IMG/VR virus record: IMGVR_UViG_2526164668_000029
Coordinates: 1-38,213 of that record
DNA length: 38,213 nt
Strand: one strand, 5' to 3'
From: a virus
Lineage: Duplodnaviria; Heunggongvirae; Uroviricota; Caudoviricetes
In this document: positions 25,646-26,139 of the stretch, piece after piece
How positions within the stretch are numbered: position 1 is the stretch's first letter
Layout: every line of letters begins with the position of its first letter
Translations under genes and position numbers: made by a program
Notes under the pieces: generated by a model
Told to the model about the DNA's origin: nothing
What the model saw: the letters and a program-made list of their open reading frames with translations, nothing else
Database searches by the model: none

Positions 25646-25879
25646 TTAATGCAGCCAGCTGTCGTCTTCCCACACCTTCTGCATAATTTTCATCACTTGT
25701 TTTCTTTCTTCGTCCAGTTGCAGTCCGGTTAGTTCCACACCGTTAGAGCTACCTTTGCGAATGCGAATTACCGTTTTGGGATACAGGGGGCGCAGATTGC
25801 GGTAAAGCTCGGATTCAAGGGCGTCCAGGGTAGACTGGCTAATCTTCTGCTCTTTATCGATCATTATTTCAATGCGCAT
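25646..25879 (-). CDS. dinI: DinI-like protein
   Basis: MRIEIMIDKEQKISQSTLDALESELYRNL...KIMQKVWEDDSWL aligns with DinI; GAGGTG Shine-Dalgarno before the internal Met at 25879. Confidence 0.8.
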   Translation of the reverse strand: MRIEIMIDKEQKISQSTLDALESELYRNLRPLYPKTVIRIRKGSSNGVELTGLQLDEERKQVMKIMQKVWEDDSWLH

Positions 25880-25889
25880 AAAAGTCACC

Positions 25890-26078
25890 TCAGCTGATGA
25901 CATCCATTGAGCGGTTGTATTCGTGGGTTCTGATTTTTGCCATGAGTTCATCAGTCAATTCAGAAACCCACTGCAGAGCCAGCCCCTTCTCTTCATCACT
26001 ACACTCACTAGCCGCTACAAGCTTAAGAAAAAAATCAATGCGCTGGAGCTTCAAAGACTCCAAAAAATAGTCCTGCAT
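25890..26078 (-). CDS. small SOS-inducible protein, possible Tum-like antirepressor
   Basis: 62-aa ORF from the internal Met, with AGGAGG immediately upstream, first gene downstream of the LexA box and upstream of the dinI-like gene. Confidence 0.5.
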   Translation of the reverse strand: MQDYFLESLKLQRIDFFLKLVAASECSDEEKGLALQWVSELTDELMAKIRTHEYNRSMDVIS

Positions 26079-26120
26079 CTTTCCTCCTATGACACCACAC
26101 GCAATGCTGTATGCATAACC

Positions 26121-26139
26121 ACTGTTTATATTTACAGTA
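26121..26139. promoter_or_regulatory. LexA box (SOS operator)
   Basis: aCTGTttatatttACAGta, a perfect CTGT-N8-ACAG with an AT-rich spacer, about 45 bp upstream of the small ORF. Confidence 0.65.

What the first reader, a model, noticed from the sequence alone, without database searches (positions are those of the whole stretch)
25646..26139. LexA-box-controlled small ORF plus dinI-like gene
A perfect CTGT-N8-ACAG operator precedes a 62-aa ORF with a strong AGGAGG site and a DinI-like gene, ending in an intrinsic terminator. In coliphage 186 the SOS-controlled tum antirepressor occupies this position, so the 62-aa protein may be a minimal antirepressor making the prophage SOS-inducible. It is much shorter than 186 Tum as I recall it.
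Basis: partly seen in the sequence, partly recalled or inferred. Interest (0 to 1): 0.4.

Follow-up and report, generated by a model that had tools for sequence, protein, structure and literature searches.

The report
Split Tum antirepressor SOS operon of prophage
This is the DNA-damage switch of a Fels-2/186-type prophage of E. coli: a LexA-repressed pair of small genes, a 62-residue anti-repressor and a DinI-like protein. It is the known split form of the phage 186 tum gene, so it is real but ordinary.

Summary
A LexA box lies at 26122-26137. Next come AGGAGG, a 62-aa ORF (26078-25890) and, 10 nt later, a 77-aa DinI-family gene (25879-25646).

The window is a Fels-2-like P2-family prophage inserted at ssrA. 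The 62-aa protein is 98% identical to Fels-2 STM2728, and the DinI-like protein is 100% identical to Fels-2 STM2726.1.

Profile comparisons link the 62-aa family to residues 3-44 of phage 186 Tum (hhalign E 4.5e-8). The 77-aa protein matches Tum residues 71-145. So 186 Tum corresponds to the two window genes fused.

The literature already states that Fels-2 and PSP3 carry tum split by a stop codon, with the upstream gene as the antirepressor. The resident CI is 186-type, with no self-cleavage domain.

- The operator is a colicin-type double LexA box.
- The operon is followed by a covarying RNA hairpin, a GC hairpin and the cos site.
- The replication gene A carries a frameshift.
- The named terminator lies outside the given coordinates.

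No function was tested experimentally.

The parts
26157..26162 (-). Candidate -35 hexamer TTTACA of the tum promoter, preceded by an A-tract
   Evidence: It is near-invariant in 79 distinct upstream regions from viral contigs, while the spacer after it varies. The tool's sigma-70 scan found no promoter here. The promoter is therefore inferred from conservation and from the annotated p95 of phage 186.
26134..26141 (-). Candidate -10: TATACT (26141-26136, 15-nt spacer) or TACTGT (26139-26134, 17-nt spacer, as annotated for 186 p95). Either overlaps LexA box 1.
   Evidence: Read. The 186 annotation places the p95 -10 on the first six bases of the LexA site. No transcript start was mapped.
26120..26139 (-). 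LexA box 1: TACTGTAAATATAAACAGTG (core CTGT-N8-ACAG at 26137-26122)
   Evidence: 17 of 20 match to the consensus, and no shuffle out of 100 has such a match. A perfect box is present in 11 of 12 relatives.
26107..26122 (-). LexA box 2: GTGGTTATGCATACAG, sharing one G with box 1 (colicin-type double operator)
   Evidence: The combined pattern is unique in the window and occurs in no shuffle out of 100. TGG and ACAG are invariant, with a variable N8, in all 8 Fels-2-type relatives. The layout is the same as in colicin and klebicin promoters.
26083..26088 (-). Shine-Dalgarno AGGAGG of tumA
   Evidence: Sequence. It is conserved as AGGAGG in relatives.
25890..26078 (-). tumA-type gene, 62 aa: the putative CI antirepressor
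   Evidence: phrog_698, E 3.6e-38. 98% identical to Fels-2 STM2728. Profile link to 186 Tum residues 3-44. Predicted two-helix hairpin, pLDDT 88.5.
25646..25879 (-). tumB-type gene, 77 aa, DinI family; its SD GAGGTGA (25891-25885) overlaps the tumA stop codon
   Evidence: PF06183, E 6.6e-23. 100% identical to Fels-2 STM2726.1, 78% to PSP3 TumB, and 41-43% to 186 Tum residues 71-145.
25574..25643 (-). Conserved structured element after tumB: a hairpin (25643-25601) plus the invariant tail GGTTGAACAACGAG..GAGGCGTTAG
   Evidence: 16 predicted pairs, 9 with compensatory double changes, many G-U pairs. One copy per locus in 54 loci. It also occurs in 186 and PSP3. No Rfam match.
25484..25513 (-). 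GC-rich stem-loop GGCCCGCCAGAACTGGCGGGC followed by UUUU: the candidate terminator of the operon, and also part of the conserved cos flank
   Evidence: Fold. The homologous hairpin in the right ends of 186 and PSP3 lacks the U run. It is below the scan's 5-T criterion.
25423..25442 (-). cos: the right end ...CATAAAGCGGGCA stops at 25442; the 19-nt cohesive end GGCGTGGCGGGGATACGAG is 25441-25423
   Evidence: The window aligns with the terminal sequences of the 186 and PSP3 records, which stop exactly at ...GGGCA.
31697..32326 (+). cI, the 186-type immunity repressor and presumed target of TumA
   Evidence: PF07022 (E 1.5e-28) plus PF16452 (E 2.1e-30), with no peptidase S24 domain. RefSeq annotates it as 'phage repressor protein CI' in the near-identical E. 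coli PSS-08-2 prophage.

Best explanation
The region is the SOS operon of a Fels-2-like (P2/186 family) prophage of E. coli.

In undamaged cells, LexA binds a double operator (box 1 at 26137-26122, box 2 at 26122-26107). The operator overlaps the -10 region of the promoter and keeps it shut. After DNA damage, RecA-stimulated LexA self-cleavage frees the promoter. One short transcript is then made, encoding TumA (62 aa) and TumB (77 aa, DinI family). This is the last transcription unit before cos.

TumA is a two-helix hairpin homologous to the N-terminal half of phage 186 Tum. It is proposed to bind the 186-type CI repressor reversibly and keep it off its operators. CI here has no autocleavage domain. 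Loss of CI binding would derepress the early lytic promoter.

TumB corresponds to the DinI-like C-terminal half of 186 Tum. It probably modulates RecA filament activity or the strength of induction, and is probably not needed for antirepression.

Shown here: the sequence anatomy, the homologies, the conservation of the operator and the CI type. Inferred: LexA binding, the promoter hexamers, the TumA-CI interaction and the TumB role.
For: Anatomy.

Identity of the element. It is a Fels-2-like prophage at ssrA. TumA is 98% and TumB 100% identical to the Fels-2 proteins.

Homology to 186 Tum:
- The window protein hits phrog_698, 8554 and 1993 at E 3.6e-38, 2.4e-8 and 0.0022.
- 186 Tum residues 1-70 hit the same three families at E 5.9e-6, 3.4e-12 and 1.5e-23.
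- hhalign gives E 4.5e-8, residues 3-44 on residues 3-44.
- TumB aligns to Tum residues 71-145, E 3e-24.

Annotation and literature. The 186 record annotates the p95 promoter, the LexA site and 'inhibits CI DNA binding'. The PSP3 record annotates tumA as 'UV induction of prophage' and tumB as DinI-like. PMC3121763 describes the split tum of Fels-2 and PSP3, and assigns antirepressor activity to the upstream gene. PMC7708051 describes Tum sequestering CI after LexA derepression of p95.

CI type. CI is PF07022 plus PF16452 without an S24 peptidase domain.

Linkage of the LexA box to tumA. A LexA box precedes the tumA homologue in 11 of 12 relatives. Three lineages have a tumA-like gene with a LexA box but no DinI-like gene annotated after it: ev040, ESSI-2 and Yersinia 06.16-2.

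Double operator. It matches colicin operators. In viral contigs it is followed by a TumA-like ORF in 96 of 119 cases.
Against: - No experiment was done here. No LexA binding, transcript or TumA-CI interaction was tested.
- The 62-aa protein has no pairwise BLASTP similarity to Tum. Its profile match to PSP3 TumA, the member with reported activity, is weak (E 0.0039, probability 8.6%).
- No Pfam, NCBIfam or PADLOC family covers the protein, and PHROGs lists its function as unknown.
- The sigma-70 scan found no promoter. With TATACT as the -10 the spacer is only 15 nt.
- TumA similarity tracks CI similarity only loosely, and the comparison is not corrected for phylogeny.
- Gene A is frameshifted in this window. 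If that is real, induction would not yield phage.
- The primary paper on Fels-2 tum was not retrievable.
Confidence: 0.85

Rival explanations
1. The operon is LexA-controlled, but the 62-aa protein is not an antirepressor. It has some other SOS-linked role, and the prophage is induced by another route or not at all.
For: No curated family or tested function is attached to phrog_698. The similarity to the Tum N-terminal half is only at profile level. TumA stays 84-98% identical in phages whose CI is only 41-82% identical. That is unexpected for a strictly immunity-specific partner.
Against: The profile matches to 186 Tum are reciprocal and in register. The position and the LexA control are the same as for tum. 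CI lacks an autocleavage domain, so an antirepressor is needed for SOS induction. The literature assigns the activity to the upstream half in PSP3 and treats Fels-2 as split tum. The CI HTH domain is much better conserved than the C-terminal domain among these phages. A conserved TumA is therefore still compatible with CI binding.
Confidence: 0.08
2. The module is intact, but it sits in a replication-defective prophage. In this strain it therefore acts only as an SOS-induced host modulator (DinI-like protein) and possibly as a trans-acting antirepressor for other resident P2-like prophages.
For: There is one extra T in the T-run at 26927-26932 relative to E. coli PSS-08-2, phage 813R9 and Fels-2. 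It splits gene A into two overlapping ORFs of 579 and 273 aa. Trans-acting antirepressors are documented for Gifsy prophages.
Against: A single-base difference in a homopolymer is a typical sequencing error. The rest of the prophage differs from PSS-08-2 by only 2 substitutions in 20.8 kb before the attR end. This rival concerns the consequence of the module, not its nature.
Confidence: 0.12
3. The DinI-like TumB is the main effector, acting through RecA. The 62-aa ORF is an accessory or leader peptide.
For: TumB is the only product with a curated family. The 186 record says the short DinI-like Tum forms 'modulate SOS induction'.
Against: CI has no RecA-cleavable domain. Lineages such as ev040, ESSI-2 and Yersinia 06.16-2 keep the LexA box and the tumA-like gene but have no DinI-like gene annotated after it. 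10 of 94 viral contigs with the module also lack a DinI-like ORF within 900 nt. In 186 only full-length Tum is annotated as inhibiting CI binding.
Confidence: 0.03
4. The real gene is the longer 96-aa ORF starting at ATG 26180, which many gene callers pick. The CTGT-N8-ACAG would then lie inside coding sequence and would not be an operator.
For: ORF 25890-26180 exists. Many database entries are 84-106 aa long.
Against: Homologues align from the internal M-x-D start, and the upstream extensions are not conserved in length or sequence. A strong AGGAGG precedes the internal ATG. In the upstream stretch the conserved columns are the -35 hexamer and the LexA half-sites, while the spacers vary. That is an operator pattern, not a codon pattern.
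Confidence: 0.02

Closest known systems
Coliphage 186 SOS operon (p95-tum-orf97) and its Tum antirepressor
   Same: The position is the same: after replication gene A, at the right end before cos. A LexA box overlaps the promoter. There is a 186-type CI without a cleavage domain. The N-terminal Tum domain is homologous to the 62-aa protein, and the DinI-like C-terminal domain is homologous to the 77-aa protein.
   Different: In 186 the two domains are one 146-aa polypeptide with internal starts. Here they are two genes separated by a stop codon and 10 nt. 186 has a single LexA box, whereas this element has a double one. 186 carries orf97 in the operon, and this element does not. The N-terminal domains share only about 20% identity.
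Fels-2 STM2728 / STM2726.1 and PSP3 tumA / tumB (split tum)
   Same: The two-gene layout is the same. TumA is 98% and TumB 100% identical to the Fels-2 proteins. The operator is the same except for three bases in the spacer of box 2. The literature describes both phages as having tum split by a stop codon.
   Different: PSP3 TumA belongs to a different PHROG (1993 rather than 698) and is only 22% identical. PSP3 has a single LexA box. Fels-2 lacks the conserved hairpin element after tumB.
Gifsy-prophage LexA-controlled dinI-antirepressor operons (GfoA, GftA, GfhA)
   Same: A LexA-repressed operon pairs a DinI homologue with a small antirepressor that inactivates a non-cleavable repressor by binding.
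   Different: The gene order is reversed, with dinI first. The phages are lambdoid, with a different repressor family. Homology of the antirepressors to the 62-aa protein was not tested here.
Double overlapping SOS boxes of colicin and klebicin operons
   Same: Two 16-bp LexA boxes share one base, and the sequences are almost the same: CTGTATATAAAACCAGTGGTTATATGTACAG in the plasmid against CTGTAAATATAAACAGTGGTTATGCATACAG here. Colicin operators of this kind bind two LexA dimers and give very tight repression (PMC2994835).
   Different: The downstream genes are unrelated (bacteriocin against antirepressor). In the colicin promoters the boxes lie downstream of the -10, whereas here box 1 overlaps it. 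Binding of two LexA dimers here is inferred.
Chromosomal DinI of E. coli
   Same: The Pfam family is the same (PF06183). There is 30% identity and a conserved acidic C-terminal W-E-x-x-D/E-x-W motif.
   Different: It scores 42.7 bits against the DinI equivalog model, whose cut-off is 111. It is therefore a phage paralogue, not the DinI orthologue.

Membership tests
186-type SOS operon / Tum antirepressor | A LexA operator overlaps the promoter directly upstream of the gene | tested here: met
   The 20-mer matches the consensus at 17 of 20 positions, and no shuffle out of 100 has such a match. A perfect box is present in 11 of 12 relatives. This is sequence-level evidence only.
186-type SOS operon / Tum antirepressor | [quoted passage not shown] | tested here: met
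   Gene A lies at 26232-28647. cos lies at 25442/25441, by alignment with the ends of the 186 and PSP3 records.
186-type SOS operon / Tum antirepressor | Sequence homology to the Tum N-terminal (antirepressor) half | tested here: met
   BLASTP is negative. Profile methods are positive: hhalign E 4.5e-8, probability 94.9%, and reciprocal PHROG hits in register.
186-type SOS operon / Tum antirepressor | A single polypeptide with a DinI-like C-terminal half | tested here: not met
   The two halves are separate ORFs, with stop TGA at 25892-25890 and the next ATG at 25879. This is the split tumA/tumB form, not the fused Tum.
186-type SOS operon / Tum antirepressor | The cognate repressor is a 186-type CI that is not self-cleaving | tested here: met
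   PF07022 plus PF16452, with no S24 peptidase domain.
186-type SOS operon / Tum antirepressor | The protein binds CI and blocks its DNA binding, and expression depends on LexA cleavage | not testable with these tools
   This needs EMSA, reporter or pull-down assays. The only support is literature on 186, PSP3 and Fels-2.
Split tum (tumA/tumB) of Fels-2 and PSP3 | Two adjacent genes: a small upstream ORF and a DinI-like downstream ORF, under one LexA-controlled promoter | tested here: met
   98% and 100% identity to the Fels-2 pair. The layout is the same as the annotated tumA/tumB of PSP3.
DinI family (PF06183) | Score above the Pfam gathering threshold over the whole domain | tested here: met
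   81.3 bits against a cut-off of 24.2, covering profile positions 1-63 of 63. It is not the DinI equivalog: 42.7 bits against 111.
Colicin-type double SOS operator | Two 16-bp LexA boxes overlapping by one base pair | tested here: met
   The pattern CTGT-N8-MCAGTGG-N8-ACAG is unique in the window and found in no shuffle out of 100. It aligns base for base with klebicin and colicin E1-type promoters.
Colicin-type double SOS operator | Occupancy by two LexA dimers, giving tight, late-induced expression | not testable with these tools
   This needs footprinting and kinetics. The property is documented for colicins in PMC2994835.
Gifsy-type small antirepressors (GfoA/GftA) | Sequence homology to GfoA/GftA | not tested
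   Those sequences were not fetched. Only the functional analogy from PMC3121763 was considered.

The most novel reading that the evidence does not exclude
Fels-2-type TumA may be a broad-specificity, trans-acting antirepressor. It stays 84-98% identical in prophages whose CI repressors are only 41-82% identical overall, while those repressors keep a conserved HTH domain. One damaged cell could then co-induce several heteroimmune P2-like prophages. The colicin-type double LexA operator would set a high damage threshold for that decision. A double operator on a prophage antirepressor gene, and the covarying RNA hairpin closing the operon, are not described in the sources I could read.
Probability: 0.25. 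Interest if true: 0.4.

Novelty: already known. Interest (0 to 1): 0.15.

Why it matters
This module decides whether a very common family of E. coli, Salmonella and Klebsiella prophages wakes up after DNA damage, including damage from antibiotics. A 4.9-kb query spanning the module and its neighbouring genes (window 23800-28700) matched 1314 of 5426 complete E. coli genomes.

The practical value here is annotation. The 62-aa gene is still labelled 'hypothetical protein' or 'levan regulatory protein' in RefSeq, PHROGs and phage records. The literature and profile homology both identify it as the TumA half of the 186 Tum antirepressor.

The double LexA operator and the structured 3' element are small additions that could be tested easily.

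Tried and rejected
- BLASTP of the 62-aa protein against 186 Tum gave no alignment. Profile methods were needed.
- Pfam, NCBIfam and PADLOC had nothing for the 62-aa protein. A PDB sequence search with the family profile gave no hits.
- Foldseek of the confident two-helix model against the PDB gave only generic helical hairpins, none at E <= 0.001. This was uninformative.
- The exhaustive HMMER search of 1.84 billion representatives found 66 clusters at E <= 0.001. Nearly all were stand-alone proteins of 50-100 aa. None was evidently a fused Tum-like form.
- The sigma-70 scan found no promoter. Its terminator scan flagged only a weak hairpin across the tumA/tumB junction. I regard that as chance, or as a translational-coupling structure. 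It is not conserved as sequence in relatives, though each relative folds some hairpin there.
- Covariation of CI and TumA across 10 phages gave rho 0.65 with the CI HTH domain and 0.44 with the C-terminal domain. This is not corrected for shared ancestry, so it is inconclusive.
- Rfam had no family in 25000-26500.
- The P2 and 186 cos 19-mers with up to 3 mismatches were not found. cos was located by aligning the genome ends instead.
- Bunny et al. 2002, the primary paper on Fels-2 tum, is not held in the library.

Full report
**What is in the sequence**

The genes of the finding read on the minus strand. Going 5' to 3' on that strand:
- A-tract and TTTACA (26162-26157).
- TATACTGT, in which either TATACT (26141-26136) or TACTGT (26139-26134) could be the -10.
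- A second box, GTGGTTATGCATACAG (26122-26107), which shares one G with the first.
- AGGAGG (26088-26083), then ATG at 26078 and a 62-codon ORF ending in TGA at 25892-25890.
- GAGGTGA overlapping that stop codon, then ATG at 25879 and a 77-codon ORF ending in TAA at 25648-25646.

**Is it more than chance?**

CTGT-N8-ACAG occurs once in the window. That pattern alone is weak evidence: 0.42 are expected, and 34 of 100 shuffles have at least one.

The stronger tests are these:
- The 20-mer matches the LexA consensus at 17 of 20 positions. No shuffle out of 100 reaches this.
- The two-box pattern is unique in the window and absent from all shuffles.

The 77-aa ORF is a clear DinI-family protein (PF06183, E 6.6e-23).

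**What the window is**

The window is a P2/186-family prophage of the Fels-2 type.
- The region is 99.5% identical to Escherichia phage vB_EcoM-813R9, and it is common in Klebsiella, Salmonella and E. coli phages.
- The prophage differs from one in the E. coli PSS-08-2 chromosome by two substitutions and one inserted base over 20.8 kb, before the two sequences diverge at the attR end near 34545.
- It lies next to ssrA. The full tmRNA gene is at 698-1060.
- The gene order is int, cI, apl, cII ... dam, A, then the finding, then cos. This is the order in Fels-2 and 186.

**Identity of the two small proteins**

The 62-aa protein is 98% identical (61 of 62) to Fels-2 STM2728. The 77-aa protein is 100% identical to Fels-2 STM2726.1 and 78% identical to PSP3 TumB.

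The 186 record shows tum as a 146-aa protein under the LexA-repressed promoter p95. The full-length form is annotated 'inhibits CI DNA binding'. The shorter internal-start forms are annotated as modulating SOS induction.

The window's 77-aa protein aligns with Tum residues 71-145 (41% identity, E 3e-24). That is exactly the shortest annotated Tum product.

The 62-aa protein gives no BLASTP alignment to Tum. Profiles connect them in register:
- The window protein hits phrog_698, 8554 and 1993 at E 3.6e-38, 2.4e-8 and 0.0022.
- Tum residues 1-70 hit the same three families at E 5.9e-6, 3.4e-12 and 1.5e-23.
- PSP3 TumA is phrog_1993 (E 2.7e-32).
- A 28-member alignment of diverse homologues was built from an exhaustive search that found only 66 clusters, almost all stand-alone small proteins. 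It aligns to Tum residues 3-44 with hhalign probability 94.9%, E 4.5e-8.
- Its direct match to PSP3 TumA is weak (E 0.0039).

The family conserves D3, E7, the LQR(I/V) motif, a cysteine near position 26, an A-L pair, W37 and E-L. AlphaFold predicts a two-helix hairpin (helices 2-23 and 28-61, pLDDT 88.5). No informative structural neighbours were found.

**What the literature already says**

Lemire et al. 2011 (PMC3121763) make three relevant statements:
- 186 Tum looks like an antirepressor fused to a DinI sequence.
[quoted passage not shown] They cite Bunny et al. 2002 and a personal communication from G. E. Christie.

The PSP3 record annotates tumA as 'similar to 5' end 186 tum; UV induction of prophage'. 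Work on 186 describes Tum sequestering CI after LexA derepression of p95 (PMC7708051).

From my own memory of the abstract of Bunny et al. 2002, the Fels-2 tum homologue was responsible for the lethality of lexA null mutations in Salmonella. I could not retrieve that paper, so this point is unverified here.

**Mechanism**

The resident CI (31697-32326) has the 186-type HTH and C-terminal domains, and no S24 autopeptidase domain. SOS induction must therefore go through an antirepressor.

A LexA box precedes the tumA-type gene in 11 of 12 relatives examined. These include 186, PSP3, a Yersinia phage whose gene is annotated 'tum protein', and ESSI2_ev040. The flanks of these boxes cannot be aligned.

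Three lineages (ev040, ESSI-2 and Yersinia 06.16-2) carry the LexA box and a tumA-like gene but have no DinI-like gene annotated after it. This points to TumA as the essential part and TumB as an accessory.

I therefore take this chain as the most likely mechanism: LexA repression, damage-induced expression, TumA binding to CI, and derepression of the lytic promoter. TumB would act as a DinI-like modulator of RecA.

A rough covariation test was done across 10 phages. TumA similarity tracks the CI HTH domain (rho 0.65) better than the CI C-terminal domain (rho 0.44). The test is not corrected for phylogeny, so I treat it as inconclusive.

(a) *The operator is double.* Box 2 (GTGG-N8-ACAG) keeps TGG and ACAG invariant, with a variable spacer, in all eight Fels-2-type relatives. 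It is absent from 186, PSP3, the Yersinia phage and ev040.

The 31-bp double operator is nearly the same sequence as the overlapping SOS boxes in front of colicin E1-type and klebicin genes on small plasmids. Those are known to bind two LexA dimers and to give very tight repression (PMC2994835).

In a truncated scan of viral contigs, 96 of 119 occurrences of the pattern are followed within 900 nt by a TumA-like ORF. Of 94 loci analysed further, 84 also have a DinI-like ORF. Across 79 distinct upstream regions, the conserved columns are the -35 TTTACA, the TATA before box 1 and the box cores. The spacers and the 5' UTR vary.

(b) *The 3' end.* Directly after the tumB stop lies a hairpin (25643-25601) followed by the invariant motif GGTTGAACAACGAG..GAGGCGTTAG (to 25574).
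- In 21 distinct variants, 9 of 16 pairs show compensatory double changes, and many pairs are G-U. This argues for an RNA structure on the sense strand.
- The element also follows orf97 in 186, and two copies flank gp37 in PSP3.
- It has no U-tract and no Rfam match. Its function is open.

Further downstream, a GC-rich stem-loop with UUUU (about 25513-25487) is the best terminator candidate. The same hairpin, without the U run, is conserved in the right-end flanks of 186 and PSP3.

That alignment also places cos. The 186 and PSP3 records end at ...CATAAAG(T/C)GGGCA. The window has ...CATAAAGCGGGCA ending at 25442, followed by GGCGTGGCGGGGATACGAG. [quoted passage not shown]

**Caveats**

Gene A has one extra T in a T-run (26927-26932) compared with PSS-08-2, 813R9 and Fels-2. 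This may be a sequencing error or a real inactivation.

Nothing here was tested experimentally. The promoter hexamers are inferred, and the sigma-70 scan reported none.

**Verdict**

The arrangement is already known as the split tumA/tumB form of the 186 SOS operon, and these proteins are 98-100% identical to those of Fels-2.

The remaining value is modest:
- A better name for a gene that databases still call hypothetical.
- The double, colicin-like LexA operator.
- An unexplained covarying hairpin at the operon's 3' end.

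Noticed in passing
window 26107-26137 (-): The LexA site is a double operator. Box 2 (GTGGTTATGCATACAG) overlaps box 1 by one base. It is almost the same sequence as the double SOS boxes of colicin E1-type and klebicin promoters. It is conserved in all Fels-2-type relatives, and it is linked to TumA-like ORFs in 96 of 119 viral contigs holding the pattern.
   Followed up: yes
window 25574-25643 (-); also L001 4329-4413 (186), L004 near 5596 and 6001 (PSP3): A conserved hairpin with 9 of 16 pairs showing compensatory changes and many G-U pairs. It is followed by the invariant motif GGTTGAACAACGAG..GAGGCGTTAG, directly after tumB. In 186 it follows orf97, and in PSP3 two copies flank gp37. 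It has no U-tract and no Rfam family. Its function is unknown.
   Followed up: partly
window 25423-25442 (-): The cos site. The right end ...CATAAAGCGGGCA stops at 25442, and the 19-nt cohesive end GGCGTGGCGGGGATACGAG follows. It was located by aligning the window with the terminal sequences of the 186 and PSP3 records. The GC hairpin at 25513-25488 belongs to the conserved cos flank.
   Followed up: partly
window 26927-26932 (gene A, 26232-28647, -): One extra T in a homopolymer, relative to E. coli PSS-08-2, phage 813R9 and Fels-2. It splits replication gene A into two overlapping ORFs of 579 and 273 aa. This is either a sequencing error or a replication-defective prophage.
   Followed up: partly
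window 23915-25324 (-): A 469-aa ORF between cos and the portal gene Q. It matches the anti-phage defence protein PD-T7-1 (PADLOC E 1.3e-196; phrog_8571; no Pfam family). Relatives carry different cargo in this slot: a Hypoth_Ymh-domain protein, a TIR-domain protein, or an ATP-binding protein with RloB. This is the variable hotspot of P2-like phages.
   Followed up: partly
window 698-1060 (+) and about 34370-34545: A full ssrA (tmRNA) gene lies at the left, and identity to the PSS-08-2 prophage ends near 34545. The prophage therefore occupies roughly 1.1-34.5 kb and is inserted at ssrA, like Fels-2. In PSS-08-2 the right junction carries a partial tmRNA annotation.
   Followed up: partly
window 34668-35939 (+) and 36465-38213 (-): Beyond the prophage lies a second integrase-like gene, split into two ORFs of 124 and 237 aa. 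There is also a 582-aa ORF with a Response_reg_2 domain (PF19192, E 3.6e-31) that runs off the window end. These may belong to another island. In PSS-08-2 the corresponding neighbourhood holds a P4-type Psu gene, but the window diverges from that strain here.
   Followed up: no
window 33352-34383 (+): A 343-aa ORF after int, at the prophage end. It has no Pfam or PADLOC match and a hydrophobic N-terminus. It is probably a moron. SopE-phi has an unrelated 'orfY' at the same place.
   Followed up: no
databases: The 62-aa TumA-type protein is annotated 'hypothetical protein' (RefSeq WP_001154434.1), 'unknown function' (phrog_698) or 'levan regulatory protein'. It is often called with a 20-40-aa false N-terminal extension that runs across the LexA operator.
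   Followed up: yes
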